Counted from the first letter of the stretch, positions 2,718 to 27,153 are shown. The stretch: 32,000 nt of DNA from Acaryochloris marina MBIC11017 (GCF_000018105.1 NC_009925.1:4410001-4442000), one strand, 5' to 3'. The notes: a model not told the origin generated them from the sequence alone. Numbers and translations: made by a program.

Positions 2718-2730
2718 ACATCTAAACATT

Positions 2731-6143: not shown

Positions 6144-6147
6144 GGTA

Positions 6148-6753
6148 CTAAACCTCAGGTGGGATTAAATCGTGGGGAGTGTTGCAATTCCATAACATGG
6201 CTTGGGATTGGGTATCTATGGCAATCTTCTGGGCTGGAAGACGGGATAGCCAATCCTGGAAAGATTGCCCGCCTTGTTGGATAAAGGACTGCAAAGATGA
6301 ACGGCTTTGATAATGGTAGAACCCACACAGGGGCTGCCATTGCTCAGGCTGATGGGGGACTAGAGCTAAAGCTTGGGTATTTGGTAATAAGGCTAACCAT
6401 TCCCTGAGAATATCTGGACGGAGCAGGGGTAAATCACATGCTAGCAGAAGTACCCATGTTGTTTGGAGTTGATTCAAGCCTGCTAAGAGTGCCACTAAGG
6501 GGCCTTGATCAGGTGGGTGTTCCCGTAAAACAATGCAGGAAGATGGTATCACGGGTTGATAGCGTTCAGGCCAAGGGGTGAGTACATGAACGAGATCGCA
6601 GCACTGCAGGGCAGCGCGACAAACTCGCTGGAGCATGGGGACGCCCTGCCAACAGAGCAACGCTTTATCCGATCCCATGCGTCGACTTCGTCCCCCTGCT
6701 AAGACTAGACCAACAATATAATTCTGTTGCGTGAGGGATGTTGGCTGGTTCAT
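6148..6753 (-). CDS. mobA: Molybdenum cofactor guanylyltransferase
   Basis: 201 aa. The N-terminal GLVLAGGRSRRMGSDKALL nucleotide-binding motif and LLACDLP motif are characteristic of MobA. Confidence 0.85.
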   Translation of the reverse strand: MNQPTSLTQQNYIVGLVLAGGRSRRMGSDKALLCWQGVPMLQRVCRAALQCCDLVHVLTPWPERYQPVIPSSCIVLREHPPDQGPLVALLAGLNQLQTTWVLLLACDLPLLRPDILREWLALLPNTQALALVPHQPEQWQPLCGFYHYQSRSSLQSFIQQGGQSFQDWLSRLPAQKIAIDTQSQAMLWNCNTPHDLIPPEV

Positions 6754-6812
6754 AGCGTTTTGAATGGCGCAAAACCGATGATGATGGAGGGGATCAAAAT
6801 TTCTCCATGCTT

Positions 6813-7865: not shown

Positions 7866-7948
7866 GGCTGTTTACTTTGCCAACTCTAGAATCAAGGGTC
7901 ACCTTGATACTTGTGTAGCAATTTACCCACATCTCCTCTTAATGGGCT

Positions 7949-8878
7949 TTATGGAATATTGGAGATGAATGAATCATGAACTAAACGTCGAAAATTAGCA
8001 ATAGGTGGAATTAACAAGCGGTCCTGAGTGGTCACCATCACAACTTCGCGAGTCAGGTTTAATTGTGGATCCATATCCTTGGCTTCAGGTGCAGCCAAGT
8101 CTCGAATCGCCAGGGAGGGATCGTTAAGAGAATCGACTAAAGCCCCCCTGGGTAATAGAGAAATCATTTCTCCTTGGCGAATGACGCCTCGAAAGGCATC
8201 TAGGGTATTGAGTTCAAGGACCGCTTTCAGATCTAGACCTTGGCTTTTGAACTGATCCTGTACCAACCGCTGCATCCCATACCCGTCTTTGAACATCACT
8301 TGTGGGAATTTGGCTAACTCAGGCCAAGGCACAACGCCGTGGGACGCCAAAGGATGTTCTGAAGACATCAGAACTTGAATGGGTTCGTTGTACAGCCAGT
8401 CAACAACATTTTCTGAGCGACTTGTTAGTAACGGATTGTTCATCACAATGGCTAAGTCAACCAAACCATCTTGGAGGACTTTCAAAGAACGGTCGCTCCC
8501 CAAGGATGTGACCCTCAATTGGACTTCTGGGTAGAGCTGGCAAAATTTCTGGAGCACTGGCGGTAAGTAATGGGCACAGACGGAATGAATTGCCGCAACG
8601 CAGAGTTCAGGCTGTTTACCGGCCCGGAGATCATTGATTTCCTGGGTGGCATCTTGCCATTCGGTCAAAATTTTACGCACATGAGGGAGGAGCTGATCCC
8701 CTGCCAAGGTGAGTTTGCTTTGAGCACCGCGATGTAAGAGGGGGAGCCCCAGTTCAGATTCCAGTCCTTGAATTTGCCGACTTACGGTTGATTGGGTCAC
8801 CCCACATTTCTTGGCCGCTTGTTGGAAACTCCCTGTTTGGGCTACCGATAAAAATGCTTGCAGTTGCTCGAGCCGCAT
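7949..8878 (-). CDS. ntcB: LysR-family transcriptional regulator, likely nitrogen-assimilation activator NtcB
   Basis: 309 aa. N-terminal wHTH MRLEQLQAFLSVAQTGSFQQAAKKCGVTQSTVSRQIQGLE plus a LysR substrate-binding domain. The NtcB call rests on the length, the NtcA-type promoter upstream and the downstream mobA/narM-like genes. The LysR call itself is about 0.9. Confidence 0.6.
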   Translation of the reverse strand: MRLEQLQAFLSVAQTGSFQQAAKKCGVTQSTVSRQIQGLESELGLPLLHRGAQSKLTLAGDQLLPHVRKILTEWQDATQEINDLRAGKQPELCVAAIHSVCAHYLPPVLQKFCQLYPEVQLRVTSLGSDRSLKVLQDGLVDLAIVMNNPLLTSRSENVVDWLYNEPIQVLMSSEHPLASHGVVPWPELAKFPQVMFKDGYGMQRLVQDQFKSQGLDLKAVLELNTLDAFRGVIRQGEMISLLPRGALVDSLNDPSLAIRDLAAPEAKDMDPQLNLTREVVMVTTQDRLLIPPIANFRRLVHDSFISNIP

Positions 8879-10104: not shown

Positions 10105-10677
10105 ATGGCTAAGAAAACCATCCGAGCGACTCTCCTCAAGCTGGTAGCAGGACTAGCGGTCATCACCGTGCTAACGACCATTGTTATGGGTCCTTCCTTA
10201 ACGGTTCAAGGGGTTCCCATTGGGATTATTTTCAAGTTCTTGCAAGATGGTCAGGCCCGAGAAGCTTATTTCTCTGACGACAAGCAGGGCTTACATACTC
10301 GCCTACAGGAACTGGATGTTGAAGAAGAAATTAAAGCGTTTTACCGACCGCAAATCCCAGATGAGGTCAAATTAGATCAACATATCCACCAGATCTTTTA
10401 TGATACTGCAGGGTATGTGGGCAAAGCCTATCAAGTCAATGCTCAAGGCACTTTAGTATTAATTGATCGCCAGTTTGAGCAATGGTATCCCTTGGCATAT
10501 CAAGCAGGCGTGGTGGTTGATAGTGTCTATAAAGACGATATCCATTATGTGGTGGGGCCAGATGGCATTACTGCCCCTTATAAACAAGTGGCCCAGCTAT
10601 TTCCCATTCCAACCCTCAAAGAATTAATCAAATTGAAATCAAAACAATCCCTTTCGTGGGGGGAAATACCAAGTTAG
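10105..10677 (+). CDS. Hypothetical membrane-anchored protein
   Basis: 190-aa ORF with an N-terminal TM/signal anchor (LLKLVAGLAVITVLTTIVMGP). No recognised motif. Confidence 0.5.
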   Translation: MAKKTIRATLLKLVAGLAVITVLTTIVMGPSLTVQGVPIGIIFKFLQDGQAREAYFSDDKQGLHTRLQELDVEEEIKAFYRPQIPDEVKLDQHIHQIFYDTAGYVGKAYQVNAQGTLVLIDRQFEQWYPLAYQAGVVVDSVYKDDIHYVVGPDGITAPYKQVAQLFPIPTLKELIKLKSKQSLSWGEIPS

Positions 10678-16254: not shown

Positions 16255-16590
16255 ATGTCTGTCACTCATTCCGTCCCTACCACTGAGATGCAAGTCACCA
16301 GTATTCGGTTGGAGCGAGAATTGAAGGATAAACTAAAGAACCTCTCTGGCCATCAGGGCTATCAGGCACTGATTCGCGACATTCTTTGGAACTATGTTCA
16401 GCAAAAGTCGGGGGACTTTACCCCGACCGTTGAGCGATCGCAAATTTCTGCATCATTTCCTGCTACAGCTCAAGCAGACACCCGTTGCGCCTTAACGGGT
16501 AAAGCGATTCGCTCTCAAGAGCCGATTCAACTGGGATTAACAACAGAAGGAGTACTGATTCCCCTCAGCTCAGGGAGTTTGTCGGCATAA
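16255..16590 (+). CDS. Ribbon-helix-helix (CopG/BrnA-antitoxin-like) domain protein with a C-terminal extension
   Basis: 111 aa. TSIRLERELKDKLKNLSGHQGYQALIRDILWNYV resembles BrnA/CopG-type RHH antitoxin domains. No partner toxin ORF is adjacent. Confidence 0.45.
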   Translation: MSVTHSVPTTEMQVTSIRLERELKDKLKNLSGHQGYQALIRDILWNYVQQKSGDFTPTVERSQISASFPATAQADTRCALTGKAIRSQEPIQLGLTTEGVLIPLSSGSLSA

Positions 16591-16798
16591 GTTGGGATTA
16601 AAGAATTGAGGTCGCAATGGGCCTGAGTTCGATTGCGGTCACTCTAAATAAACTCTGGATATTCTGACGATTTATAAACTAAACGCACAGAATAGGGGGA
16701 CTATCTGGGCATGCTGGGGATATAAAGCAACTTTTCCAAAGTGTGCACGTCTACCCAACTCAAATGACGCCCTAGACGTGGGCGTTGAGGTGCAAGTT

Positions 16799-17299
16799 AT
16801 GAAGAATCCTAGAAAAGGGTGGCAATGGGGGCGGTGGCAGATTCCTATGACCGCTTTATTGCTGATGGTAGGACTGTTTGGCAGAGGGCCTGATGTGAAA
16901 GCTAATCCTGCTAATTTTGCTAGTCTCAGCTTATCGCCTGGATTCAGTTCTAAAACTGTAAAAGGTTATGCCAAAGGGGCAATCGCGCTTCATCGAGTTG
17001 TGGGAGAGCGAGATATGCAGAGAAATATGTGCTTAGGGTATGGTTCTCCGAGTCCAGATCATGTGTTGGTATTGAAGAAAAACGTCAACAAGCTGCGTTT
17101 GCAGGTCAATAGCAGCCGGGATACCACCCTACTGATCAAAGGACCCCGAAATCGTCTTTATTGCTTGGATGACTCAGCTAAAGGGAAAGATGCAGGTTGG
17201 CTTGCGAACCAACTTCCAGCTGGTAGGTATTCCATTTGGGTGGGGACATTTGAAAGAGGGCAACAATTTCGCTATACCGTCACCGTTGATGAACTTTAA
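16799..17299 (+). CDS. Secreted protein of unknown function (cyanobacterial pre-peptidase-C-terminal-like beta domain)
   Basis: Start moved to the in-frame ATG at 16799. Signal peptide MKNPRKGWQWGRWQIPMTALLLMVGLFG. The pattern FASLSLSPGF...CLGYGSPSPDHVLVL...DTTLLIKGP...YCLDDS...AGRYSIWVGTFE recurs in cyanobacterial secreted domains. Confidence 0.55.
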   Translation: MKNPRKGWQWGRWQIPMTALLLMVGLFGRGPDVKANPANFASLSLSPGFSSKTVKGYAKGAIALHRVVGERDMQRNMCLGYGSPSPDHVLVLKKNVNKLRLQVNSSRDTTLLIKGPRNRLYCLDDSAKGKDAGWLANQLPAGRYSIWVGTFERGQQFRYTVTVDEL

Positions 17300-18203: not shown

Positions 18204-19949
18204 ATGCTCACCAAACTTGTCCGCTTCTTGGGCTCAATTAAGCTGGCCGTCCCAGTACTGGGTGCGATCGCAAGTATCTTAATTTGGGCGACGTTCTATG
18301 AGAGCAAGGTAGGGTCCCTTGTCGTCCAGCAGCAAATCTATAAGAGTCCCTGGTTTGGGGCCTTGATGTTTCTGCTAGCGGTCAATTTGGGGGTTTCCAC
18401 CCTCTCCCGTTATCCCTGGCGAGGGGCGCGGAAAGTGGGCTTTGCCCTCACCCATTTGGGATTAATCGTGCTGATTGCAGGGTCTGCAGCGGTGATTCAC
18501 CTCGGTGTGGAAGGACTTTTACTAGTCCGTACCGATCAACCAGCGAACCATTTGGTTCGGGTTGAGGGGGAATTATTAGAAGTGATGGATGACCAAGGCC
18601 AAGTACAACAGGCAGCGGTGATGGTAACGCCTGAGCGAATTATTTCTCCCACTCAATTCGCTGGGTTAAGGTTGTTGGACTATATCGAGAATTCCGTCGA
18701 AACGGTTGAATATCGTGACGGTGATGCCCAGGATGATCCAGCAATACGGTTGGTATTGAGTAGCGATCGCATGGGTCAAACCTTTGATCAGTGGTTATCG
18801 CCCGCTGCTGAAACGGTAGATTTGGGGCCAGCCCAACTGGAACTGTGGCAAGCTGCCAATCAGACCGATCTCCAACAGCTCTTGACCGATCCAACCCAAC
18901 AGCAAGCCCGCCAATCTGGAACCCTGATGTTCAAGATGGGAGACGTAGATACCCCGTTGGCCATTGATGACTTACGCCGTCAGGATGCCGTCATTAATGA
19001 TATCCAGGTTCACTTACTGAACGTGTGGCCTGATTTTCGCTTGGATGACCAGAATCAGCCGATCACAGCGTCTCAGGATTGGCGAAATCCAGCCTTAGAA
19101 GTAGAAGTGACCCAGGCCGATCTGCAAGAACGCTGGTTTGTCTTTGCTCAAGCTGGGCCGATCTTGGCGGGGGATGAGTCTTTACTGGATTTGGATTGGG
19201 AGTATCAAATCCCACCGCCCCCGACTAGCGACTACTTCCGAGTCGTGGTTGCCAATCAAAAGCTCTATTATGCAGCCCGCTCCTCTAAGTCTTTTACATC
19301 AGGGCCTTTGGTGATGGATCAAATGATTCAGCCGGGCTGGGCAGATTTTAAAATCACCCTGGCAGACTGGCTTCCCCATGGGAAGCGGATCCAAGAGCGC
19401 CTTCCCGCTCCATCTGGTGTTGAAGGAGTTCCGGCGTTGCAGGTGGCCTCAGCGGATGGGCAGCAATGGCTGACCTGGGGGGACTCAGCACTGATTGCCG
19501 ATGGTGCGCACCCTAAAATGGCGGCCTTTGGCCCTCGCATGCTGGCCTTACCCTTTCGGGTGGGTCTGGATGATTTTGTCGTTGAACGGAATGAAGGTAG
19601 CGACTCGGTGGCCATGTGGACGAGCCAAATTCGCATCGAAGATCTTCAGGGAGAATCTGCTCAAAAACGGTCGGTCTGGATGAATCATCCCACCTGGTAC
19701 CAGGGATGGAAAATTGCCCAAGCCTCTTGGAATCCTGGCGATTTGAACCAGTCCACCCTGCAAGTTAAACGGGAACCCCTATGGGTGACCGCTTTGACCT
19801 GGAGTGGCGCTTTACTGACCGTATTAGGGGTTGGCGTTATGTTTTATGGCCCGACCCTATTCAAAAAACGGTCAGCGGTGTTGGAGCAACCCACTGAGCC
19901 GATCACGGCTGAACCCACCCCTCTGCCCCTTGCACCTCAGGATGGATAA
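18204..19949 (+). CDS. ResB/Ccs1-like cytochrome c biogenesis protein (System II), long form
   Basis: 581 aa. The N-terminus LVRFLGSIKLAVPVLGAIASILIWATFYES, a second TM, a His-containing TM (LTHLGLIVLIAGSAAVIH), a large soluble loop and a C-terminal TM match ResB/CcsB topology. Its stop overlaps the next gene's start (TAATG). Confidence 0.75.
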   Translation: MLTKLVRFLGSIKLAVPVLGAIASILIWATFYESKVGSLVVQQQIYKSPWFGALMFLLAVNLGVSTLSRYPWRGARKVGFALTHLGLIVLIAGSAAVIHLGVEGLLLVRTDQPANHLVRVEGELLEVMDDQGQVQQAAVMVTPERIISPTQFAGLRLLDYIENSVETVEYRDGDAQDDPAIRLVLSSDRMGQTFDQWLSPAAETVDLGPAQLELWQAANQTDLQQLLTDPTQQQARQSGTLMFKMGDVDTPLAIDDLRRQDAVINDIQVHLLNVWPDFRLDDQNQPITASQDWRNPALEVEVTQADLQERWFVFAQAGPILAGDESLLDLDWEYQIPPPPTSDYFRVVVANQKLYYAARSSKSFTSGPLVMDQMIQPGWADFKITLADWLPHGKRIQERLPAPSGVEGVPALQVASADGQQWLTWGDSALIADGAHPKMAAFGPRMLALPFRVGLDDFVVERNEGSDSVAMWTSQIRIEDLQGESAQKRSVWMNHPTWYQGWKIAQASWNPGDLNQSTLQVKREPLWVTALTWSGALLTVLGVGVMFYGPTLFKKRSAVLEQPTEPITAEPTPLPLAPQDG

Positions 19950-21649
19950 TGAATCAACTGCAATTTTTATGGGGACTCTGTCTGGCGTTGGCCTTGGCGG
20001 TCACCCCTATCAGTCAATGGCAACCCCCAACCCAAACAGCGATTGATACCCTGGCTGTTCAGCTGGATGGTCGCAAAAAGCCCTTAGATACAGTGGCCCG
20101 GGAAACCGTCACCACGATTCATGGGTCATCGCGATATCAACTGGCTAGTGGTGAGGTTTTAGATGCGCCACAAATCTATTGGTCTTTGTGGCTAAACAGC
20201 CGGAATTGGAATGACGAGCCCTTTGTGCTGGTCAATTATCGCCCCCTCAAGGCCCAATTGGGACTGCCCTTGGAGCAAAAGCACTTTAGCTTTTCTACCC
20301 TGATCAATTCTAATTTGGGTCTAATCTTGCAACAAGCCCATACCAAACAGCTGCAAGAGCAACCCCTGACACGAGATGAACGAGAAGCTCTGACGCTTGA
20401 AGATCGCCTTAATTTGATGTTGGATACGGTTGGCAGCCAAAGCCTGCCTCTGGTGCCCCATCCCATGGATATCAAAGGAACTTGGGTCGGGATTACGGAT
20501 ACTGAACAGCTTTATCCGCCTGAGATGGCAGCCAAGATTCAAACCCAGTTTGAGCAGCTCAACCAGCAGTATCAAGCTCAGAGAGATGATTTAGACTCTT
20601 TGGCGGAGCCTGCGGCTCTATTGCAGCAGTCCCTAGCAGACTTAAGTCCTGAGATTTATCCAGCAATGGCCACGTTGCAACGGGAAGCCTTTTTCAATCA
20701 CTTCCATCCTTTTGGTAAAGCATGGAAACTGTATGGGATAGCATTCCTGGTCCTCCTCACTAGCCAACCCATTTCTAGCTTTAACTTGTATTGGACTGGC
20801 ATGGGAACCTTCCTCGGAGGCATCTTGATCCAAGCCTTTGGCTTTGGCCTGCGCATGCAAATTGCAGGCCGTCCTCCCGTTACCAATATGTATGAATCCG
20901 TGGTTTGGGTTGGCTTTGGGATTGCCGCCTTAGCCTTTTGCTTCGAGCTTCAGACCCGAGCCCGTTCCTATCTGTATGCGGCGGCTCCCCTTGCCGTCGT
21001 GTGCCTGCTGCTGGCCGATAGTTTACCTGCAGTTTTGGACCCCAGTATTGAGCCCTTAGTGCCCGTATTGCGAGATAACTTTTGGCTCAGTATCCACGTC
21101 CCCACGATCACCCTTAGCTATGCCAGCTTTGCTTTGGCCATGGGATTAGGGCATTTGGCATTGGTGCAATATTGGCGACACCCCCAGGGAGGGTCAACCG
21201 CCAGCGCCCTGTCCCGGCTTAATACTCGCGTCATTCAAGTGGGAATATTGCTGCTAACGACAGGCATTATTTTGGGCGGCATCTGGGCGCATTTTTCCTG
21301 GGGGCGATTTTGGGGTTGGGATCCAAAAGAGACCTGGGCTTTAATTGCCTTGCTTTGCTATTTAGCGCCTGTTCATGGTCGTTTAGCGGGTTGGTTAGGA
21401 CAATTTGGTATGAATGTGGCCAGTGTCTTAGGGTTTAATGCCGTACTGATGGCTTGGTATGGCGTTAATTTTGTGTTGGGAACAGGATTACATAGTTATG
21501 GATTCGGTACGGGCGGTTCTGCAGTGCTGATCACCGGTTTAGTCGGTATGGATAGCTTATTTGTGTTGGCAACCATTCTCCGCTATCGTTCTCAGCAGCA
21601 TCGTAGTGCTTCTCCCTCGGTGCCTGAAGTGCAAACTGCTGATGCTTAA
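19949..21649 (+). CDS. CcsA/ResC-like cytochrome c assembly (heme-handling) protein with a roughly 250-aa N-terminal extension
   Basis: 566 aa. Trp-rich heme-handling motif WGRFWGWDPKETWALI. Conserved TM histidines (SIHVPTITLSY, YLAPVHGRLAGW). N-terminal signal/TM followed by a soluble domain ahead of the 8-TM core. Confidence 0.85.
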   Translation: MNQLQFLWGLCLALALAVTPISQWQPPTQTAIDTLAVQLDGRKKPLDTVARETVTTIHGSSRYQLASGEVLDAPQIYWSLWLNSRNWNDEPFVLVNYRPLKAQLGLPLEQKHFSFSTLINSNLGLILQQAHTKQLQEQPLTRDEREALTLEDRLNLMLDTVGSQSLPLVPHPMDIKGTWVGITDTEQLYPPEMAAKIQTQFEQLNQQYQAQRDDLDSLAEPAALLQQSLADLSPEIYPAMATLQREAFFNHFHPFGKAWKLYGIAFLVLLTSQPISSFNLYWTGMGTFLGGILIQAFGFGLRMQIAGRPPVTNMYESVVWVGFGIAALAFCFELQTRARSYLYAAAPLAVVCLLLADSLPAVLDPSIEPLVPVLRDNFWLSIHVPTITLSYASFALAMGLGHLALVQYWRHPQGGSTASALSRLNTRVIQVGILLLTTGIILGGIWAHFSWGRFWGWDPKETWALIALLCYLAPVHGRLAGWLGQFGMNVASVLGFNAVLMAWYGVNFVLGTGLHSYGFGTGGSAVLITGLVGMDSLFVLATILRYRSQQHRSASPSVPEVQTADA

Positions 21650-21699
21650 TGTCAGGATTGTGTCGTCCCATTCATACACACCAATTGGAAAACTAAGCG

Positions 21700-22626
21700 A
21701 TGGCCGTTCTCACACCGGAAGAGGTGCAAACGAAAGTTCAACAGGGCATTTCTTTACAAGGAGCAGAACTCAGCAATATCAATTTGCAGGGATTCTCCCT
21801 GGATGATGGTCATTTCCCACAAGCCTATTTACGGGTGGCGAATTTATCCCAAGCCTCCTGTAATCGAGCCGATTTTACGGAAGCGATCTTGATCTTTGCA
21901 ACCCTCACGGGAATTAGCTTGCAGGATGCATTACTAACGGAAGCTCAATTTACCTCTGCCCGCCTTGACTCGGCTAATTTGATGGGGATTCATGGCGTGA
22001 AGCTCAAACTGCATGGTGCCCATTTGGATCAAGCGAATGCGGCCACAGCCATTTTGGAGTCGGTGGATTTAGCAGAAGCCACTGGCCAGTATGCCTCCTT
22101 CAGAGATGCCATTTTAATCAGAGCTGATCTGTCTCAGGGCGATTTCAAGGGGGCTAACTTTAGCCGAGCGAAGCTCAATGATGCCAATTTGAGTCAGGGA
22201 CAATTCTCAGAGGCCATTTTTGCCCATGCCCGCTTGGAACGGTCTCGCTTTGTACAGTCCAATTTACAAAAAGCAGATTTTACTGGGGCTGATTTAATCG
22301 GCAGTAACTTAGAGCAGGTCAATTTACAGGAAGCACAGCTACAGCAGGCCAGTTTTGATCATGTGCTCTTAGGGCAAACTTGTATGCGCGACGCTCGGTT
22401 GAACCATGCCTCTTTCTATAGTGCTCATTTAGAGCAGGCTGACTTAACGGGTGCTCAAGTAGAGCAGACAGATTTTCGGGATGCCAATTTGGAAAACACT
22501 CAACTTCACAACGTTGATTTTTTTAACACCATTGTGTCTGGCGCAATCTTTACCGATGCTAAAGGATTATCCAGTGAGCAGAAAGTACTACTGCGAAAAC
22601 AGGGCGCTCTAAATGTCCCTAAATAA
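21700..22626 (+). CDS. Pentapeptide-repeat protein
   Basis: 308 aa made almost entirely of A(D/N)LxX-type pentapeptides (ANLSQ ASCNR ADFTE AILIF ATLTG ...). Confidence 0.9.
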   Translation: MAVLTPEEVQTKVQQGISLQGAELSNINLQGFSLDDGHFPQAYLRVANLSQASCNRADFTEAILIFATLTGISLQDALLTEAQFTSARLDSANLMGIHGVKLKLHGAHLDQANAATAILESVDLAEATGQYASFRDAILIRADLSQGDFKGANFSRAKLNDANLSQGQFSEAIFAHARLERSRFVQSNLQKADFTGADLIGSNLEQVNLQEAQLQQASFDHVLLGQTCMRDARLNHASFYSAHLEQADLTGAQVEQTDFRDANLENTQLHNVDFFNTIVSGAIFTDAKGLSSEQKVLLRKQGALNVPK

Positions 22627-22988
22627 TGTATCTTTTTATACTTTTTTATTGGGCGTATTCTTTGCTAGAGAAACCGTAATTACTGATGTAATTTTTGCAT
22701 TGAAGTTATGCAATCGACGACTTTTATATAGTGTTAATTGTATTAATTGATACGACTCGACTGGTAATTATTTTTTACCTTTGAAGGCATATTTTGAATC
22801 TGCAGCTTAATGCTGTTTATGAATGTCAAAATTTCGACGATGCAACGCTTTGGGTGAAAGCATTTTGATGCTCGTTGAACGGTTGATGGTGCTTCGAGAA
22901 TGCTGTGAATCGGTGTTGCGATCGCACTCATCTCACTCTACTTTCTATTTCTCTTCTGAGGAATACCAAGATGACCTAACCTAAATAA

Positions 22989-23039
22989 ATTTCAAGATCT
23001 TAAAAGAGGTACTTGATTGCTCTTTTAAGATCTTGAAAT
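22989..23039. repeat. Perfect 20-bp inverted repeat (11-nt spacer) in the AT-rich leader upstream of the globin gene; candidate operator or RNA hairpin
   Basis: ATTTCAAGATCTTAAAAGAG (22989-23008) and CTCTTTTAAGATCTTGAAAT (23020-23039) are exact reverse complements. Each arm contains the internal palindrome AAGATCTT. The centre lies about 177 nt upstream of the ATG at 23191. Confidence 0.8.
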
Positions 23040-23190
23040 AGAAAGAGGAATTTCCCCTTAAGGAAGAGATGCTTGATCTGAATTTATCCCACTGAACAGC
23101 TATTAATCCCACCTTTGAAAAAAGATTAGACTCGGTTCAATTAATCTTTTGAATTAGCCCTTGAGCCCCATATCTTCAATAGGTAAATCT

Positions 23191-24207
23191 ATGACCTTAC
23201 AAGTTGAAATCCTTGAAAGTAGCTTTGAGAAAGTAAAACCTCAAGCTAATGAATTTGTTTCAAGTTTTTATAATCACTTATTCACGGATTACCCAGAGGC
23301 TCAACCTCTTTTTGAGGGAACAGACATGGAGAAGCAAGGTGGCAAGCTCTTGCAATCTCTGGTATTGGTGATTGAGAATTTGCGCAAACCTGATGCGTTG
23401 GGTAATGCTCTCAAAGGTCTGGGAGCCCGACATGTGAAATATGGGGCCTTACCGGAGCATTACCCCTTGGTGGGAGCGACCTTACTGAAGACGTTTGAAC
23501 AATACCTAGGGGATGCATGGACTGAAGAGGTTCAAACAGCCTGGGTGGATGCCTACGGAGCCATTACCACCATCATGTTGGACGGTGCAGATTATTCAGA
23601 GGCAGATGTCCAGCTCAAACCAGAAGCGCCACCGACTGAATCCGGCTTGCAAGTTGAGCTATTGGAAACGAGCTTTGCCCAAGTGAAGCCTGTCGCTAAT
23701 GAGTTTGCGGATCGCTTTTACGAGAACCTGTTCACTGATTATCCCGCTGCCCAACCCTTATTTGCGAATACAGATATCAAACAACAAAGCAAAAAATTGC
23801 TGCAATCCCTCGTGTTGGTTGTTGAAAATCTGCGTAAGCCAGATGCACTAGGAGACGCCCTCACGGGACTGGGGGCTCGGCATGTGAAATATGGCGCTTT
23901 ACCGGAGCATTACCCCTTGGTGGGTAATACCCTGCTCAAAACCTTTGAGGAATTTTTAGGGACTGCCTGGACTGATGATGTCAAACAGGCTTGGGTCGAT
24001 GCCTATGGGGCTATCAGCACCATCATGTTAGACGGTGCTGATTATTCCACAGCAGATTTAGATTTGAATTCAGCCTCCCCCGCTGCAGCCGCCTCACCTA
24101 GCAGCTTCTCCAGTGAGGCTTCAGAGCCTGAGCGACCAACAGGATTGTTATTAGGGCTGGCAGGTGGCGGCATTATTGCGGTCATTATTGCCATTCTGTT
24201 GGTCTAA
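23191..24207 (+). CDS. Tandem two-domain globin (Vitreoscilla Hb/flavohemoglobin-type globin fold x2) with a C-terminal transmembrane anchor and no reductase domain
   Basis: Start moved to the ATG at 23191. Each domain has FY(N/E)xLFTDYPxAQPLF (B10 Tyr, CD1 Phe), KLLQSLVLV(I/V)ENL (E helix with Gln), LGARHVKYGALPEHYPLVG (proximal His) and AWVDAYGAI(T/S)TIMLDGADY. The domains are offset by exactly 150 aa. A Ser/Pro/Ala linker follows, then GLLLGLAGGGIIAVIIAILLV. Confidence 0.85.
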   Translation: MTLQVEILESSFEKVKPQANEFVSSFYNHLFTDYPEAQPLFEGTDMEKQGGKLLQSLVLVIENLRKPDALGNALKGLGARHVKYGALPEHYPLVGATLLKTFEQYLGDAWTEEVQTAWVDAYGAITTIMLDGADYSEADVQLKPEAPPTESGLQVELLETSFAQVKPVANEFADRFYENLFTDYPAAQPLFANTDIKQQSKKLLQSLVLVVENLRKPDALGDALTGLGARHVKYGALPEHYPLVGNTLLKTFEEFLGTAWTDDVKQAWVDAYGAISTIMLDGADYSTADLDLNSASPAAAASPSSFSSEASEPERPTGLLLGLAGGGIIAVIIAILLV

Positions 24208-24226
24208 ATTTTCTAGGGCAATTGTA

Positions 24227-24874
24227 GTGGCCAAAACGAAAAAATCTTTTTTGAGCTTATCGGCTCTATTTAATGTCAGAAATACTGTGATTGTGCTGTG
24301 TTTAATTTTGATGGGTTGGTTGGGGGCCGCCTTTGCTTTAGACCACAAAACGATCTTTCTACCGGGCGTAACGTCTAATGGACATCTCTTATTTGAGGCG
24401 TCATGTGCCTCTTGTCATGAGGGGTTTAAGCCTGTGAGTAATGACACGTGCATGCGCTGCCATGAGGCAGAAATGGCAACGGATGCCCATGGACCCAAGA
24501 AGTTTCGAGATCTGCGCTGGGCTGCTGAACTAGAGAAATTGGAGGTATTAACGTGCACCACTTGCCACAACGAACATGTGCATATGTTTGATCGCGGGGT
24601 GCATCTAAAACCAGATCTCTGCATGATTTGCCATGAAGGCATTATTCAAGGGGAATTGGCCAGTCATAAAGGGTTGTCACCGGATGGATGTTGGACCGCT
24701 GGTTGCCACAATTACCACGACCATCGCAGTATTTCAACGGGCTTTTTACGTCAGAGTATGGGCCAAGCAGATATGTTGCCGAAGCCCGCATTACCGGCTC
24801 GCACGATTAAGCCTGAACTGGCGGCACCCCCTCAGCCTGACTTGGATAAAGAGCTTCTCGGAGGGCGGGCATGA
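24227..24874 (+). CDS. Membrane-anchored multiheme cytochrome c with five heme-attachment sites (4 CXXCH + 1 CX4CH)
   Basis: CASCH (24404-24418), CMRCH (24449-24463), CTTCH (24554-24568), CMICH (24620-24634) and CWTAGCH (24689-24709). N-terminal signal anchor TVIVLCLILMGWLGAAFA. The start is uncertain: GTG at 24227 is preferred over ATG at 24164, which would overlap the globin TM by 44 nt. Confidence 0.8.
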   Translation: MAKTKKSFLSLSALFNVRNTVIVLCLILMGWLGAAFALDHKTIFLPGVTSNGHLLFEASCASCHEGFKPVSNDTCMRCHEAEMATDAHGPKKFRDLRWAAELEKLEVLTCTTCHNEHVHMFDRGVHLKPDLCMICHEGIIQGELASHKGLSPDGCWTAGCHNYHDHRSISTGFLRQSMGQADMLPKPALPARTIKPELAAPPQPDLDKELLGGRA

Positions 24875-25653
24875 GGAGCTGGCTTCTAAGAGGGGTGTTG
24901 TTATTGCTGCTCTGGAATGGGTTGACGGTTTCTGTCTTGGCGGTTGATCAGGCTCAGCTCCAGTCTATCAATCAAAGCTGGTCCCAAAGTGCTCATGCCT
25001 TAGCTGACGTGAACTGTTCGAGCTGTCACCAGAATAAATCCACGAAACAGGTGCTGAAGCGGCCCAATCATGAAAGCTGTCAATCTTGCCATAAAGCGCA
25101 AGTGGATACCTTTTTACTCGGTAAGCATGGTATCCGCCTCTTGGAAGGACAAACGGCACTCACCCCTGCCTTGGCCCATCTGCCGATGCAAGCAGCTGCC
25201 CATGACAAACAGATGAACTGTAATGCTTGTCATGACGTTCATTCAGTGAAAACGTTACCCGCCTCGGTTGACTCTTGTCTGACCTGCCACAAGGACACCC
25301 ATTCACTGAACTACAAGAACTCCCGACATGGGCAATTGCTGCAAGAAGAAGGGGCACTTCCCCGGCCTTCGACTGTTTCAACGACTTGTGCGACTTGCCA
25401 CCTGCCCCGCCAAACATCGGCATCGGGGACGGTGACGGTCAACCACAACAATACCTTCACGTTACTGCCACGCGATCGCATGGTGAAAGAGGTCTGTATG
25501 AATTGCCACGGCATGGAATTTGCCTACAACAGCATTTTTGATGATGACTTAGTGGAATCGAATTTTGCCCGACCCCCTACCTTATCGATGGACACTCTGA
25601 AAATGGTGCGTGCGCTAGAACAACAACGGTCGGGCAATTCCAAATCAGAGTAA
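24871..25653 (+). CDS. Secreted hexaheme cytochrome c (paired-CXXCH type)
   Basis: 260 aa. Signal peptide MRSWLLRGVLLLLLWNGLTVSVLA. Six CXXCH motifs: CSSCH, CQSCH, CNACH, CLTCH, CATCH, CMNCH. Its ATG overlaps the upstream stop (ATGA, 24871-24874). Confidence 0.85.
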   Translation: MRSWLLRGVLLLLLWNGLTVSVLAVDQAQLQSINQSWSQSAHALADVNCSSCHQNKSTKQVLKRPNHESCQSCHKAQVDTFLLGKHGIRLLEGQTALTPALAHLPMQAAAHDKQMNCNACHDVHSVKTLPASVDSCLTCHKDTHSLNYKNSRHGQLLQEEGALPRPSTVSTTCATCHLPRQTSASGTVTVNHNNTFTLLPRDRMVKEVCMNCHGMEFAYNSIFDDDLVESNFARPPTLSMDTLKMVRALEQQRSGNSKSE

Positions 25654-25703
25654 TCCATCCCATCGAAACGAATCAGATGCATCTCATTGAGAGGAGACAC
25701 AAG

Positions 25704-26357
25704 ATGACTTTGACACGAAATTGGTTTAGAACGTTGCGTTCCAGAACCCTCGGCTTTTTTGCCCTAGCTGCAGCCATTTGTTTCACCGCTGTGGCCTGTA
25801 GTGGGGGTGCCGAATCCCAGGCTACTGGGGGGGTAAAACCCGAATTAGTGGCTGATTATATCCATACTGCTTTAGCTTCCGATCGAACGGCCTATACCAA
25901 GCATGTGGTTAACCGAGCCAAAAAACTAGAGGGTAAGCCCAAGAAAGATGGTGTGCTGGCCATTGAAGCCACCGAAGGCTGGGAAAGCAATGATGGTATT
26001 CCTTTGCCTGCTCAAATGTTTCGGCTCGGATCTGAGATTGCCTCCGAAGCAGACACGGCTTTTACCTATAACCTGATCTCAACTTGGTACATTAACGACG
26101 CTCAAGGTCCTAAAAATGATTTTGAGAAAAAAGCCATCCAACAGGTTGAGAAAACGGGTGAACCTTTCAAGGAGTACCAGGAAGTAGGAGGTAAGAAGTA
26201 TTTTTCGGCCCTCTATCCCGATAAGGCAGTAGCAGAAGCCTGTATTACTTGTCATAACACCCACCCTGTACACAAAGAACGCTATCCCGATAAGGTCTTC
26301 AAAATGGATGATGTGATGGGCGGCATCATGATCAATATTCCTTTGGAAGGTGCTTAG
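25704..26357 (+). CDS. DUF3365-type c-type heme lipoprotein (Tll0287-like PAS-like heme domain)
   Basis: Start placed at the ATG at 25704, preceded by GAGGAG. Signal peptide with lipobox (FTAVA-C). Single C-terminal CITCH followed by GGIMINIPL, plus the LPAQMFR pattern typical of DUF3365. Confidence 0.7.
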   Translation: MTLTRNWFRTLRSRTLGFFALAAAICFTAVACSGGAESQATGGVKPELVADYIHTALASDRTAYTKHVVNRAKKLEGKPKKDGVLAIEATEGWESNDGIPLPAQMFRLGSEIASEADTAFTYNLISTWYINDAQGPKNDFEKKAIQQVEKTGEPFKEYQEVGGKKYFSALYPDKAVAEACITCHNTHPVHKERYPDKVFKMDDVMGGIMINIPLEGA

Positions 26358-26386
26358 GTCGCAATAGCACTACCCAAAGGTAAGTG

Positions 26387-26442
26387 ATGCTCTATGGGGG
26401 AAAGGGATCGCGCCACCAGTCGATCCCTATAGAGCATTTTGT
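26387..26442 (+). terminator. Bulged hairpin with T-tail after the DUF3365 gene (terminator or attenuator)
   Basis: ATGCTCTAT/ATAGAGCAT (9 bp) and AGGGATCG/CGATCCCT (8 bp) are separated by a 7-nt bulge, with a 10-nt loop, followed by TTTGT. Confidence 0.45.
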
Positions 26443-26496
26443 CCGACTTCGAGGGGGTGAACCGATGCTCCAAAGTCCTATCACCCTAGTTAAGCT

Positions 26497-27105
26497 ATGA
26501 AGCCTAGGTTTTCAACTCTTATTATTCTGACGTTAGTGGTCGCAGCTATTTTGACCCCCTTTGCATTAAGTGGGGTTTATATTCCGTTGCTGCGCGATCG
26601 CAACTTCAATGCCTTGATCGTTCTACAAACGGATCTGTACAAGTTGATTACGGGGTTTGTCGTTCTGGCCCTTGTCTTTTTTGAACTGGCCCTCGCACTG
26701 CGTAAACGAGGGCGCCGGTGGAAAATTGCAGTGCCGGGTTCTATTTTGTTGTGGCGCAGCTTGCATATTTTTGTCGGTGTCGCTTTAGTGGCCACCGTTT
26801 TGCTCCATACCGGTGGTGCGGTTGGCGATAACTTTAATGCTCTCTTTCTCTGGGTGTTCTTTGGCGTCGCCCTATCAGCCCTAATGGGCGTGGTTGCAGA
26901 AACGGGCATTTTAGAATCTTCCCAGAAATACTTTGGGTTGGTGCCTCAAAGCTGGCAGGGTTTAGCGAAACGGTTCCCCAAGGTTTCGAAAGGGCCTCTC
27001 ATTCGCAAACTGCGTGCGATTTGGTTATCAACCCACATTATCTTGGTCAGTATGTTTTCCGTCATGCTTGGGTTTCACATTTTTGTGGCCTTTTATTTCC
27101 AATAA
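26497..27105 (+). CDS. Five-TM membrane protein, putative diheme b-type cytochrome (DUF4405-like)
   Basis: 202 aa. His90/His104 in TM3 (H-IFVGVALVATVLL-H) and His180/His194 in TM5 (H-IILVSMFSVMLGF-H) are two H-X13-H pairs, the spacing used for bis-His heme b ligation in cytochrome b of bc1 complexes. Confidence 0.5.
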   Translation: MKPRFSTLIILTLVVAAILTPFALSGVYIPLLRDRNFNALIVLQTDLYKLITGFVVLALVFFELALALRKRGRRWKIAVPGSILLWRSLHIFVGVALVATVLLHTGGAVGDNFNALFLWVFFGVALSALMGVVAETGILESSQKYFGLVPQSWQGLAKRFPKVSKGPLIRKLRAIWLSTHIILVSMFSVMLGFHIFVAFYFQ

Positions 27106-27129: not shown

Positions 27130-27153
27130 AGAGGGCGGTAAACACCGCCCTCT
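27130..27153 (-). terminator. Rho-independent terminator of groEL
   Basis: AGAGGGCGGT/ACCGCCCTCT forms a 10-bp GC-rich stem with a 4-nt loop. On the minus strand it is followed by TTTTTTGTTC. It lies 27 nt past the groEL stop. Confidence 0.75.

What the first reader, a model, noticed from the sequence alone, without database searches (positions are those of the whole stretch)
18204..27105. Nine-gene co-directional heme island: dedicated cytochrome c synthase, anchored tandem globin, 12 c-type heme sites and a putative diheme b membrane subunit
Seen in sequence:
- All nine ORFs are on the + strand, flanked by minus-strand genes on both sides.
- Couplings are tight: TAATG at 19947-19951 and ATGA at 24871-24874, with gaps of 20-50 nt inside the globin-to-DUF3365 run.
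- Eight of the nine products bind or handle heme: ResB-like, CcsA-like (WGRFWGWD), a 2x globin, a 5-site cytochrome c, a 6-site cytochrome c, a 1-site DUF3365 lipoprotein and a 5-TM protein with two H-X13-H pairs.

Established knowledge: cyanobacterial c-type cytochromes are, to my knowledge, almost all monoheme (f, c6, c550, cM). VHb/FHb-type globins normally get electrons from a fused or separate flavin reductase, and none is encoded in this window.

Inference: the globin has no signal peptide and a C-terminal anchor, so it should sit on the cytoplasmic face. The three c-type cytochromes carry export signals, so they should sit in the periplasm or lumen. The diheme-b candidate could be the trans-membrane wire between them. 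This would be an undescribed module coupling a membrane-tethered globin to a multiheme chain, perhaps for NO/N-oxide or O2 chemistry or sensing. I know of no characterised system with this composition.
Basis: partly seen in the sequence, partly recalled or inferred. Interest (0 to 1): 0.88.

Follow-up and report, generated by a model that had tools for sequence, protein, structure and literature searches.

The report
Membrane-tethered globin wired to multihaem cytochromes
A gene cluster conserved across many cyanobacteria appears to build a chain of about sixteen haems linking a haemoglobin anchored on the inner face of a membrane to cytochromes on the outer face; I found no description of this combination, and it may serve to detoxify nitric oxide.

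Summary
There are eight credible genes rather than nine, and seven handle haem. The window is Acaryochloris DNA.

The core order is tail-anchored tandem FHb-type globin, 5-haem cytochrome c, 6-haem cytochrome c, Tll0287-like haem-c lipoprotein, then a 5-TM protein with four invariant His. This order and strand are kept in about 70-77 of 80 cyanobacterial species loci examined. A dedicated ResB/CcsA pair is usually adjacent.

The 5-TM protein has no direct Pfam or PDB match. A profile search links it to DUF4405, a family shown experimentally to bind haem b.

It also matches hundreds of apparently non-cyanobacterial proteins in which the same membrane domain is fused to a NirB-like NADH/FAD/[2Fe-2S] reductase. 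Those genes are followed by a fused 11-haem cytochrome (C5+C6), a Tll0287-like protein, and then a globin, a truncated haemoglobin or a haem-copper oxidase (52 of 54 complete loci). They often sit beside nitrate-assimilation genes.

The cyanobacterial form therefore looks like a derived, reductase-less version in which the globin became membrane-tethered.

Best reading: a transmembrane haem relay serving globin O2/NO chemistry. Direction of electron flow, substrate and physical coupling are all untested. I found no published description.

The parts
18204..19949 (+). ResB/CcsB-like cytochrome c biogenesis protein (581 aa). It is a divergent paralogue with 4 hydrophobic segments and a large extracytoplasmic loop.
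   Evidence: Pfam ResB scores 56.6 bits against a cut-off of 24.6. There is no NCBIfam hit. The gene is adjacent to the module in 55 of 80 cyanobacterial loci.
19949..21649 (+). CcsA-like haem-handling protein (566 aa) with the WWD motif WGRFWGWD and a ~290-aa N-terminal extension. Its start overlaps the ResB stop (TAATG).
   Evidence: Pfam Cytochrom_C_asm scores 110 bits. TIGR03144 scores 157 bits, below its cut-off of 187.6. The motif is seen. The gene is present in 52 of 80 loci.
21700..22626 (+). Pentapeptide-repeat protein (308 aa) with no export signal; a possible accessory component.
   Evidence: Pfam Pentapeptide scores 160 bits. An end-to-end orthologue (41% identity over 307 aa) lies near the module in 44 of 80 loci, usually convergent downstream.
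23191..24207 (+). Tandem FHb/VHb-type globin (338 aa). It has two globin domains, a Pro/Ser/Ala-rich linker and a C-terminal transmembrane tail anchor (aa 320-338, about nt 24148-24204).
   Evidence: Two Globin stretches total 132 bits. The best PDB relatives are Methylacidiphilum HGb, VHb and flavohaemoglobins. In both domains the Tyr of the SFY/RFY motif, the Gln at 49/199, His81/231 and the HYP Tyr are invariant. The tail is universal among orthologues.
24227..24874 (+). C5: membrane-anchored pentahaem cytochrome c (215 aa) with 4 CXXCH and 1 CX4CH. It corresponds to the N-terminal half of a fused undecahaem in other bacteria.
   Evidence: The motifs and six further conserved His are. Pfam Cytochrom_c3_2 scores 27.8 bits. 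It is 36-39% identical to the N-terminal halves of the L087 and L090 multihaem proteins. The gap from the globin stop has a median of 18 nt over 76 loci.
24871..25653 (+). C6: soluble hexahaem cytochrome c (260 aa) with a signal peptide. It has six CXXCH and exactly six further invariant His, so all haems are probably bis-His. It corresponds to the C-terminal half of the fused undecahaem.
   Evidence: Invariant residues are from alignment A3. Pfam Cytochrom_c3_2, MtrC/MtrF_II-IV and Paired_CXXCH_1 hit. It is 38-40% identical to the C-terminal halves of the fused proteins. The ATGA overlap with C5 occurs in 70 of 77 loci.
25704..26357 (+). Tll0287-like (DUF3365 / 'sCache_heme') monohaem c lipoprotein (217 aa; an alternative ATG lies at 25677). 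It has a lipobox Cys32 and the CXXCH at 180-184, and no other conserved Cys.
   Evidence: Pfam PF11845 scores 76.3 bits. Family properties are from bioRxiv 10.64898/2026.02.01.703092. The gene is present in 73 of 80 loci.
26497..27105 (+). Mb: 202-aa, 5-TM putative dihaem cytochrome b. His90/His104 lie on TM3 and His180/His194 on TM5. It is distantly related to DUF4405.
   Evidence: All four His are invariant in 28 homologues. Topology is from charge counts. The AF2 model has pLDDT 79.6. A2 profile hits carry DUF4405 or fused NirB-like reductases. The gene is present in 69 of 80 loci.

Best explanation
**What it is.** The cluster encodes the parts of one membrane complex plus a dedicated maturation system.
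- ResB/CcsA (System II; other cyanobacteria add a thioredoxin-like protein) attach haem to three exported proteins:
  - a membrane-anchored pentahaem C5;
  - a soluble all-bis-His hexahaem C6;
  - a Tll0287-like haem-c lipoprotein.
- C5 and C6 together are a split version of an 11-haem cytochrome found fused in other bacteria.
- A small 5-TM cytochrome b of the DUF4405 kind holds two haems, one near each membrane face.
- It connects this outer haem chain to a tandem FHb-type globin held at the cytoplasmic face by a C-terminal tail anchor.

**How it probably works.**
- Electrons pass between the c-haems and the globin haems through the two b-haems. This relay takes the place of the flavin reductase that flavohaemoglobins carry, and that is fused to the b subunit in the non-cyanobacterial relatives.
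- The globin uses these electrons for O2/NO chemistry, most likely NO dioxygenation. The haem-c Cache-type lipoprotein is the most likely ligand-reactive site on the outer side.

**Shown.**
- Domain identities.
- Conservation of every haem ligand.
- The topology signals.
- The strict gene linkage.
- The existence of reductase-fused relatives.

**Inferred.**
- Complex formation.
- Electron transfer to the globin and its direction.
- The electron source: an unknown periplasmic or lumenal donor, the linked Rieske lipoprotein of other genomes, or plastoquinol at the b subunit.
- NO as the substrate.
For: **Linkage in cyanobacteria**
- Globin-C5-C6-Tll-Mb keep the same order and strand in 69-77 of 80 species loci.
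- The globin-to-C5 gap has a median of 18 nt. C5 and C6 overlap by 4 nt in 70 of 77 loci.

**Haem ligands**
- All 12 c-haem motifs are conserved.
- C6 has six extra invariant His and C5 has six extra conserved His.
- The four His of Mb are invariant.

**Topology**
- Mb has N-in topology, with His90/His180 near the cytoplasmic face and His104/His194 near the outer face.
- 78 of 81 globins have a tail anchor and none has an N-terminal signal.

**Mb family**
- The A2 profile finds 268 representatives. They include a DUF4405 member above Pfam threshold, and 640-700-aa fusions of a NirB/NorW-like FAD-[2Fe-2S] reductase with the same His pattern.
- DUF4405 binds haem b and is modelled as a transmembrane electron carrier (PMC11334425).

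**Orthologous module elsewhere**
- The order is reductase-b fusion, fused C5+C6 undecahaem (including the CX4CH site), Tll0287-like protein, then a terminal protein.
- In 54 complete loci the terminal protein is an FHb-type globin (38), a truncated Hb (7) or a divergent haem-copper oxidase (7).
- The tail anchor was seen only in the cyanobacterial form, which lacks the reductase. None of the three non-cyanobacterial globins translated has a hydrophobic tail.

**NO link**
- An Rrf2 regulator whose best match is NsrR.
- NasT-like ANTAR regulators and NrtA-like ABC transporters flank 12-17 loci.
- NirA and a nitrate-reductase-like gene flank one variant.
- There is precedent in Bradyrhizobium, where the single-domain Hb Bjgb and the flavoprotein Flp sit in a nitrate-assimilation operon (PMC4724949).
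- Tll0287-family members lacking the axial Cys behave as NO binders.
Against: - There is no experimental or structural evidence that the globin contacts Mb. A multimer model could not be run.
- In the reductase-fused relatives the globin is soluble, sits at variable positions, and is absent or replaced in 16 of 54 loci. The b/c/Cache trio can therefore work without an FHb-type globin.
- In those relatives NADH implies outward electron flow, the opposite of what the cyanobacterial globin would need.
- No electron donor for the outer chain is identified in the window.
- Cyanobacterial loci show no recurrent NO or nitrate regulator or enzyme nearby.
- Mb has no direct Pfam, PDB-sequence or Foldseek match, so haem binding rests on motif conservation and remote homology.
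- The compartment, periplasm or thylakoid lumen, is unknown.
Confidence: 0.5

Rival explanations
1. **Outward electron export.** As in the NADH-reductase-fused relatives, the b subunit carries electrons from the cytoplasm to the c-haem chain and the haem-Cache protein. These then do reductive chemistry outside the cytoplasm, for example on NO, peroxide, superoxide or an external acceptor. The tethered globin is an O2/NO-sensing gate or the docking site for a soluble reductant, not the terminal enzyme.
For: - Relatives carry a cytoplasmic NirB/NorW-like reductase on the same membrane domain, which implies NADH-to-outside flow.
- In 7 loci the terminal slot holds a haem-copper oxidase, which would be fed from the c-haem side.
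- All six C6 haems appear to be bis-His, as expected for a wire.
Against: - The cyanobacterial form has no cytoplasmic reductase in the window or in the conserved neighbourhood.
- Globins are poor electron donors.
- No catalytic open-site haem is evident in C5 or C6.
- No outer-membrane conduit is linked to the cluster.
Confidence: 0.2
2. **Co-regulated but not wired.** The globin is reduced by ordinary soluble donors (ferredoxin, FNR) and detoxifies NO on its own. The cytochromes form a separate quinol-linked or periplasmic redox system. The genes travel together only because both answer the same stress.
For: - In the relatives examined the globin is soluble (three sequences translated).
- There it can be divergent, downstream or 2.7 kb away.
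- It is replaceable by a truncated Hb that brings its own Fd-FAD-NAD reductase.
- Single-domain globins elsewhere work with separate reductases (PMC4724949).
Against: - The tail anchor is universal, with invariant Gly325/Gly326 in the tail.
- The globin is always the first gene, 18 nt (median) before C5, in cyanobacteria.
- The anchor was seen only in the form where the fused reductase is missing.
- The linkage holds in roughly 70 or more diverse cyanobacterial species.
Confidence: 0.2
3. **Signalling device.** The haem-Cache lipoprotein and/or the globin sense NO, O2 or redox state, and the cytochromes only tune that signal.
For: - The Tll0287/sCache_heme family includes NO-sensing receptor domains.
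- Globin-coupled sensors are a known class (own knowledge).
Against: - No kinase, MCP, cyclase or DNA-binding output is fused or conserved nearby.
- Twelve c-haems, two b-haems and a dedicated synthase are excessive for a sensor.
- The preprint assigns redox roles to stand-alone family members.
Confidence: 0.05

Closest known systems
Flavohaemoglobin (Hmp/FHb) and VHb-type single-domain globins acting as NO dioxygenases
   Same: The globin domains belong to the same F family. The NCBIfam flavohaemoprotein model hits at 153 bits, and the PDB matches are HGb, VHb and FHb. The distal Tyr and Gln, the proximal His and the HYP Tyr are conserved in both domains. Both need an electron supply to recycle ferric haem.
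   Different: There is no FAD/NAD domain. The protein has two (elsewhere three to five) globin domains in tandem and a C-terminal membrane anchor. It is encoded as the first gene of a cytochrome operon.
Bradyrhizobium Bjgb-Flp system (narK-bjgb-flp-nasC operon under NasS-NasT; PMC4724949)
   Same: It pairs a single-domain FHb-type globin with a separately encoded NAD(P)H flavoprotein, in a nitrate-assimilation context, for NO detoxification. This matches the context of the non-cyanobacterial relatives, which have NasT-like and NrtA-like neighbours.
   Different: It has no membrane cytochrome b, no multihaem cytochrome c and no Tll0287-like protein. I did not test homology between Flp and the fused reductase. 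The cyanobacterial form has no flavoprotein at all.
DUF4405 / MsrQ-like / PepSY-like transmembrane cytochromes b (PMC11334425)
   Same: These are small membrane proteins with four central His on two helices. Haem b binding has been shown for one DUF4405 member. They are proposed to carry electrons across the cytoplasmic membrane. A relative of Mb scores above the DUF4405 threshold.
   Different: The window protein is not recognised by the Pfam model. It has five rather than six predicted TM helices. Its partners are c-type cytochromes and a globin, not flavinylated proteins or ApbE.
Tll0287 of Thermosynechococcus / sCache_heme family (PDB 5B82; bioRxiv 10.64898/2026.02.01.703092)
   Same: It belongs to the same Pfam family (76 bits) with the defining CXXCH. 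It is a stand-alone extracytoplasmic protein.
   Different: It lacks the axial Cys of Tll0287; the only conserved Cys are the lipobox and the CXXCH. It is lipid-anchored. Its profile only weakly matches 5B82 (E = 0.046). The preprint does not mention any globin, operon or multihaem context.
Inner-membrane cytochrome b plus multihaem c modules (Geobacter CbcL / Cbc complexes, NrfH/CymA-type quinol dehydrogenases) - comparison from own knowledge
   Same: They combine a membrane b-type or anchored subunit with a bis-His multihaem chain on the outer face.
   Different: I found no sequence membership. C5 has no NapC/NirT Pfam hit, and Mb has no Ni_hydr_CYTB hit. None of these systems contains a globin or a Tll0287-like protein.
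Dedicated System II haem lyases (e.g. Wolinella NrfI and CcsA1 for non-standard haem motifs) - comparison from own knowledge
   Same: There is an extra, divergent ResB/CcsA pair next to its likely substrates, one of which carries a non-standard CX4CH site.
   Different: Specificity is untested. The non-cyanobacterial relatives have no linked synthase; only 1 of 83 loci has a CcsA hit.

Membership tests
F-family (FHb/VHb-like) globin | Globin fold recognised by the family model | tested here: met
   Pfam Globin scores 132 bits over two stretches. PDB matches to HGb, VHb and FHb reach E = 1e-25 to 1e-14.
F-family (FHb/VHb-like) globin | Proximal His F8 with the distal Tyr B10 / Gln E7 pair | tested here: met
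   His81/231, Tyr27/177, Gln49/199 and Tyr91/241 are invariant in 20 sequences. I assigned helix positions from the alignments to HGb and VHb.
Flavohaemoglobin proper | Fused FAD- and NAD(P)H-binding reductase domain | tested here: not met
   No FAD or NAD domain is present in the protein, nor in any window ORF of 120 aa or more.
System II cytochrome c synthase (ResB/CcsB + CcsA) | ResB domain, plus a CcsA with the WWD haem-handling motif | tested here: met
   ResB scores 56.6 bits and Cytochrom_C_asm 110 bits. The WGRFWGWD motif is present.
System II cytochrome c synthase (housekeeping equivalog) | Score above the NCBIfam equivalog cut-off | tested here: not met
   TIGR03144 scores 157 bits against a cut-off of 187.6. 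No NCBIfam model hits the ResB-like protein. These are divergent paralogues.
Multihaem cytochrome c (c3 / MtrA-like class) | Multiple conserved CXXCH motifs with matching distal His, and an export signal | tested here: met
   C5 has 4 CXXCH, 1 CX4CH and six further conserved His. C6 has 6 CXXCH and six further invariant His. N-terminal hydrophobic segments are present. Haem attachment itself was not tested.
NapC/NirT/NrfH quinol dehydrogenase | Match to the family model (Cytochrom_NNT) | tested here: not met
   No such Pfam hit at E <= 0.1. The NrfH NCBIfam model scores 18 bits against a cut-off of 134.
Tll0287-like / sCache_heme | Family model match plus the conserved CXXCH | tested here: met
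   PF11845 scores 76.3 bits. C180, C183 and H184 are invariant.
Tll0287 type (His/Cys-ligated) | Axial Cys ligand | tested here: not met
   The only conserved Cys are the lipobox Cys32 and the CXXCH.
DUF4405 membrane cytochrome b | Direct match to PF14358 | tested here: not met
   The window protein has no Pfam family at E <= 0.1.
DUF4405 membrane cytochrome b | Homology through intermediates, and four conserved His on two helices | tested here: met
   The A2 profile hits P0368 at E = 2e-25. P0368 scores 39.3 bits on DUF4405 against a cut-off of 26.7. The same H-x13-H pairs occur in all relatives read.
DUF4405 membrane cytochrome b | Binds haem b | not testable with these tools
   This needs expression and a pyridine haemochrome assay, as was done for another DUF4405 member (PMC11334425).
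Cytochrome b of bc1/b6f | Sequence or fold match to cytochrome b | tested here: not met
   There is no Pfam hit, no PDB sequence or profile hit at E <= 10, and no Foldseek hit below E = 3. Only the H-x13-H spacing is shared.

The most novel reading that the evidence does not exclude
This may be a previously unrecognised type of respiratory or detoxifying complex. In it a haemoglobin is the cytoplasmic terminal of a membrane-spanning wire of about 16 haems (12 c, 2 b, 2 globin). Electrons taken up outside the cytoplasm would then drive globin O2/NO chemistry inside, with no flavin involved. It would belong to a wider, unnamed bacterial module: a DUF4405-like cytochrome b, an undecahaem c and a haem-Cache protein, with a globin, a truncated haemoglobin or a haem-copper oxidase as interchangeable end stations.
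Probability: 0.4. Interest if true: 0.9.

Novelty: new variant of a known kind. Interest (0 to 1): 0.8.

Why it matters
**Two gaps it would fill**
- It would identify how reductase-less bacterial globins get their electrons, through a route no characterised globin system is known to use.
- It would be the first multihaem cytochrome c system I know of in cyanobacteria, whose c-type cytochromes are otherwise, to my knowledge, almost all monohaem.

**Functional context for orphan parts**
- It gives a context to the stand-alone Tll0287/sCache_heme proteins.
- It does the same for a DUF4405-like cytochrome b family that no current model recognises.

**Scale**
- The module is not a curiosity. The scan found relatives of the globin in 242 genome stretches of the one-genome-per-species collection, and 69-77 of the 80 best loci carry the full core.
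- These are mostly marine or benthic filamentous and pleurocapsalean cyanobacteria.
- A reductase-fused sister form has more than 400 metagenomic relatives, often beside nitrate-assimilation genes.

**What becomes testable**
- If the NO reading is right, it bears on how phototrophic mats and nitrate-assimilating bacteria cope with NO.
- It turns a concrete question into an experiment: can a haem wire replace a flavoprotein as a globin reductase?

Tried and rejected
**Searches that led nowhere**
- The exact look-up of the 348-aa TTG-start globin found nothing, because the start was wrong. The 338-aa ATG form is the one called in the genome.
- For Mb, the PDB sequence search, the PDB profile search and Foldseek on the AF2 model (pLDDT 79.6) gave no usable match.
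- The AF2 model of the hexahaem C6 was unusable (pLDDT 47.6), so I ran no fold search on it.
- Model coordinates are not exposed, so I could not measure His-His distances in the Mb model.
- The profile of the Tll0287-like family matched 5B82 only weakly and only in its C-terminal half. The axial-ligand position could not be aligned residue by residue.
- Two papers found by keyword were irrelevant: the Acinetobacter haemoglobin paper and the black band disease paper.

**Ideas considered and rejected**
- Membership of bc1/b6f cytochrome b. I considered it because of the H-x13-H pairs and the similar numbering, and rejected it for lack of any sequence or fold signal.
- C5 as a NapC/NrfH-type quinol dehydrogenase. 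Rejected, because there is no family hit.
- A catalytic HAO/NrfA-like role for C6. Its best PDB hits are an HAO-like protein and nitrite reductases, but they are weak (E = 9e-6 and poorer). Six invariant distal His argue for a pure wire.
- A nitrate-assimilation link in cyanobacteria. The window has nitrate-reductase accessory genes 10-12 kb upstream, but this linkage does not recur in the other 80 loci.
- The 20-nt palindrome upstream of the globin as a conserved operator. It is found only in same-species contigs.
- Promoter and terminator consensus scans were no better than shuffled sequence.

Full report
**Source and gene map**

The hexahaem protein encoded at 24871-25653 is found exactly on a 6.4-Mb chromosome record (GCA_024347835.1, AP026075.1) and on several sequencing-run assemblies. 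Close homologues are annotated as Acaryochloris.

The gene calls on that record agree with my ORF reading:

| Gene | Coordinates | Length |
|---|---|---|
| ResB-like | 18204-19949 | 581 aa |
| CcsA-like | 19949-21649 | 566 aa |
| Pentapeptide-repeat protein | 21700-22626 | 308 aa |
| Tandem globin | 23191-24207 | 338 aa, ATG start |
| Pentahaem cytochrome c (C5) | 24227-24874 | 215 aa, GTG start |
| Hexahaem cytochrome c (C6) | 24871-25653 | 260 aa |
| Tll0287-like protein | 25704-26357 | 217 aa |
| Membrane protein (Mb) | 26497-27105 | 202 aa |

- A 53-aa ORF at 22823-22984 is also called there.
- groEL, groES and pyrR follow on the minus strand.

**Checking the observation**

- Pfam and NCBIfam confirm the ResB, Cytochrom_C_asm, Pentapeptide, Globin (two stretches), cytochrome c3-type and Tll0287-like assignments. 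Mb has no hit.
- The overlaps TAATG (19947-19951) and ATGA (24871-24874) follow from the coordinates.
- The CcsA-like protein carries WGRFWGWD.
- C5 has four CXXCH and one CX4CH (CWTAGCH). C6 has six CXXCH and the Tll0287-like protein has one, giving twelve c-haem sites.
- Mb has five hydrophobic segments and two H-x13-H pairs.
- No window ORF of 120 aa or more has a flavin- or NAD-binding domain.

**Conservation in cyanobacteria**

- A search with the globin found 689 relatives. Most are 330-350-aa tandem globins from cyanobacteria, and some are about 490-520-aa forms that appear to carry three domains.
- An alignment of 20 shows both domains keeping the distal Tyr and Gln, the proximal His and the HYP Tyr. 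All end in a hydrophobic tail that contains two invariant Gly.
- A scan of one genome per species found 242 stretches encoding relatives. I examined the best 80 with 10 kb on each side.
- By tblastn, globin-C5-C6-Tll-Mb lie in the same order and strand in essentially every locus where the contig reaches far enough.
- ORF clustering gives the following counts out of 80 loci:
  - globin 80;
  - C5 77 and C6 77;
  - Tll 73;
  - Mb 69.
- The globin stop to C5 start gap has a median of 18 nt. C5 and C6 overlap by 4 nt in 70 of 77 loci.
- 78 of 81 globin ORFs end in a hydrophobic tail. The exceptions are two cut by contig ends and one in a rearranged locus. None has a hydrophobic N-terminus.
- The ResB/CcsA pair is adjacent in 52-55 loci, usually divergent upstream.

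Further linked genes, absent from this window, are these:
- a membrane-anchored thioredoxin-like protein just after Mb (53 loci);
- a 72-aa membrane ORF (35 loci);
- a Tat-signal Rieske lipoprotein after CcsA (38 loci);
- a ChaN-type haem-binding protein (19 loci);
- an extra single globin (11 loci).

An end-to-end orthologue of the window's pentapeptide protein lies near the module in 44 loci.

**Haem ligands and topology**

- In C6 the six CXXCH motifs are invariant. Exactly six further His are also invariant (H42, H86, H124, H144, H153, H192). This fits six bis-His haems and so an electron wire rather than a catalytic site.
- C5 keeps its five sites and six further His.
- The Tll0287-like protein keeps a lipobox Cys, the CXXCH and no other Cys. 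It therefore cannot share the His/Cys ligation of Tll0287 itself. Met105, Met205 and His187 are invariant and are candidate ligands.
- In Mb all four His are invariant in 28 homologues.
- Charge counts put the N-terminus and the Lys/Arg-rich loops 58-82 and 134-174 in the cytoplasm. This places His90/His180 near the inner face and His104/His194 near the outer face, on two parallel helices.
- That is the geometry of a dihaem transmembrane relay, by inference.
- C5 has a long N-terminal hydrophobic segment that is probably an anchor. C6 has a typical signal peptide.

**What Mb is related to**

- Mb has no PDB sequence or profile match.
- Its AF2 model (pLDDT 79.6) has no Foldseek match below E = 3.
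- A profile of 28 homologues, searched against 1.84 billion representatives, found 268 proteins.
- Among them are stand-alone 200-240-aa proteins. One scores above threshold on DUF4405 and weakly on prokaryotic cytochrome b561.
- Many 640-700-aa proteins have the Mb-like domain at the C-terminus of a Pyr_redox_2 / Rubredoxin_C / BFD-[2Fe-2S] reductase. One carries cNMP-binding, BFD and FNR-like domains instead.
- The reductase part resembles the N-terminal half of NirB (360 bits) and NorW.
- All relatives I read keep W-R-x-x-H-x13-H-T-G and H-x13-H-...-Y-Y-F.
- DUF4405 has been expressed and shown to bind haem b. It has been modelled as a four-His transmembrane electron carrier akin to MsrQ and PepSY-like proteins (PMC11334425).

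**A wider module**

Gene contexts of these relatives repeat the cyanobacterial set.
- One metagenome contig reads multihaem c, Tll0287-like, Mb-like, with a globin 2.7 kb downstream.
- A 6-Mb genome contig (L087) has a divergent globin, then the reductase-b fusion, a 487-aa multihaem c, a Tll0287-like protein and an NtrC-type regulator.
- L090 has an Rrf2 regulator whose best match is NsrR (111 bits, below its cut-off). It is followed by the fusion, a multihaem c, a Tll0287-like protein, a monohaem c and a globin.
- Another contig reads NirA-type reductase, globin, multihaem c, Tll0287-like, Mb-like, cytochrome c, ferredoxin, molybdopterin oxidoreductase.
- L093 ends in a tandem di-globin without an anchor.

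The 455-487-aa multihaem proteins are C5 and C6 fused.
- The N-terminal half is 36-39% identical to C5 and includes the CX4CH site.
- The C-terminal half is 38-40% identical to C6.
- The globins are 39-47% identical to the window's domains and the Tll0287-like proteins about 40%.

A metagenome scan with the fused undecahaem found at least 409 relatives. I examined 80 of them.
- The order fusion, undecahaem, Tll0287-like is constant.
- Among 54 loci with enough downstream sequence, the next slot holds:
  - an FHb-type globin in 38;
  - a truncated haemoglobin in 7, with a Fd-FAD-NAD reductase;
  - a divergent COX2/COX1 haem-copper oxidase in 7;
  - none of these in 2.
- NasT-like ANTAR regulators lie upstream in 17 loci. 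NrtA-like ABC transporter genes lie downstream in 12-14 loci.
- Only one of these 83 loci (the 80 plus L087, L090 and L093) has a CcsA-like gene. The dedicated System II pair is therefore a cyanobacterial addition.

**Interpretation**

- The cyanobacterial cluster is best read as a derived form of this wider module.
  - The reductase is lost.
  - The undecahaem is split in two.
  - The globin is duplicated and tail-anchored.
  - A private haem-attachment system has been added.
- The anchor was seen only where the fused reductase is missing. The globin is also invariably the first gene, a few bases before C5. Together these are the strongest arguments that the globin sits on the cytoplasmic face of Mb and exchanges electrons with it.
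- I commit to a transmembrane haem relay serving globin O2/NO chemistry at a confidence of 0.5.
- The NO reading rests on four things:
  - the FHb-type pocket;
  - the regulatory and nitrate-assimilation context of relatives;
  - the Bjgb-Flp precedent (PMC4724949);
  - the NO-binding behaviour of Tll0287-family members that lack the axial Cys.

Weak points:
- Direction of flow is unknown. NADH in the relatives implies outward flow.
- No donor for the outer chain is identified.
- The globin is dispensable or replaceable in relatives.
- There is no recurrent N-oxide gene near the cyanobacterial loci.
- The compartment is unknown.

**Comparison with the literature**

- Nine full-text searches combined cyanobacteria, globin, multihaem, Tll0287, DUF3365, DUF4405 and nitrate-assimilation terms. 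None found a paper describing this module.
- No paper in the library holds both 'DUF3365' and 'globin'.
- The 2026 preprint on the Tll0287 family never mentions a globin, an operon or multihaem proteins.
- The library lacks most subscription journals, so an existing description cannot be excluded.

**Verdict**

- The feature is real and strongly conserved. Its parts come from known families, but no characterised system has this composition.
- I rate it a new variant of known kinds (globin plus redox partner; DUF4405-type transmembrane relay).
- There is a substantial chance that it is a new type of complex.

Noticed in passing
window 5661-8878 (minus strand): This is a run of nitrate-reductase accessory genes: PF09655 'nitrate reductase-associated protein', a MobA-like molybdenum-cofactor transferase, a family-3 glycosyl transferase and a LysR regulator. 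It lies 10-12 kb upstream of the haem cluster. The linkage does not recur in the other 80 cyanobacterial loci.
   Followed up: partly
window 22989-23008 / 23020-23039: A perfect 20-nt inverted repeat (ATTTCAAGATCTTAAAAGAG) with an 11-nt spacer lies about 150 nt upstream of the globin ATG, in the 564-nt AT-rich gap. It is found only in same-species contigs, not in the other Acaryochloris loci. Its role is unknown.
   Followed up: partly
loci L007-L086 (e.g. L025:14449-14931, L068:285-761, L046:18754-19644): Other cyanobacteria add genes to the module: a membrane-anchored thioredoxin-like protein (53 loci), a Tat-signal Rieske [2Fe-2S] lipoprotein next to CcsA (38 loci) and a ChaN-type haem-binding protein (19 loci). 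None is in this window. From memory, the Rieske protein resembles the periplasmic PetC3 type.
   Followed up: partly
P0001-P0004; L007, L016, L033, L045: Some cyanobacteria appear to have three to five globin domains in one tail-anchored chain (about 490-780 aa) instead of two. The longest counts come from longest-ORF calls and may include upstream extension.
   Followed up: no
loci L094-L173: In the reductase-fused relatives the gene after the Tll0287-like protein alternates between three options: an FHb-type globin, a truncated haemoglobin with its own Fd-FAD-NAD reductase, or a very divergent COX2/COX1 haem-copper oxidase. The oxidase scores far below the cytochrome oxidase cut-offs and could be an NO reductase-like enzyme.
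   Followed up: partly
window 24871-24874; L087:7923-9386; L090:3476-4843: The pentahaem and hexahaem genes are the two halves of a single undecahaem gene in other bacteria. The 4-nt ATGA overlap is kept in 70 of 77 cyanobacterial loci, which points to one old gene fission.
   Followed up: yes
window 27130-27153: A GC-rich 10-bp-stem hairpin followed by a T run (read on the minus strand) lies in the 74-nt convergent gap between the Mb gene and groEL. It is a likely terminator for groEL and perhaps for both genes.
   Followed up: no
window 16255-17299 and 63-1058, 2692-3945, 4475-5656, 10105-10677: Several sizeable ORFs have no Pfam family at E <= 1e-4. The 111-aa and 173-aa ORFs just upstream of the cluster are conserved only among the Acaryochloris loci.
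   Followed up: no
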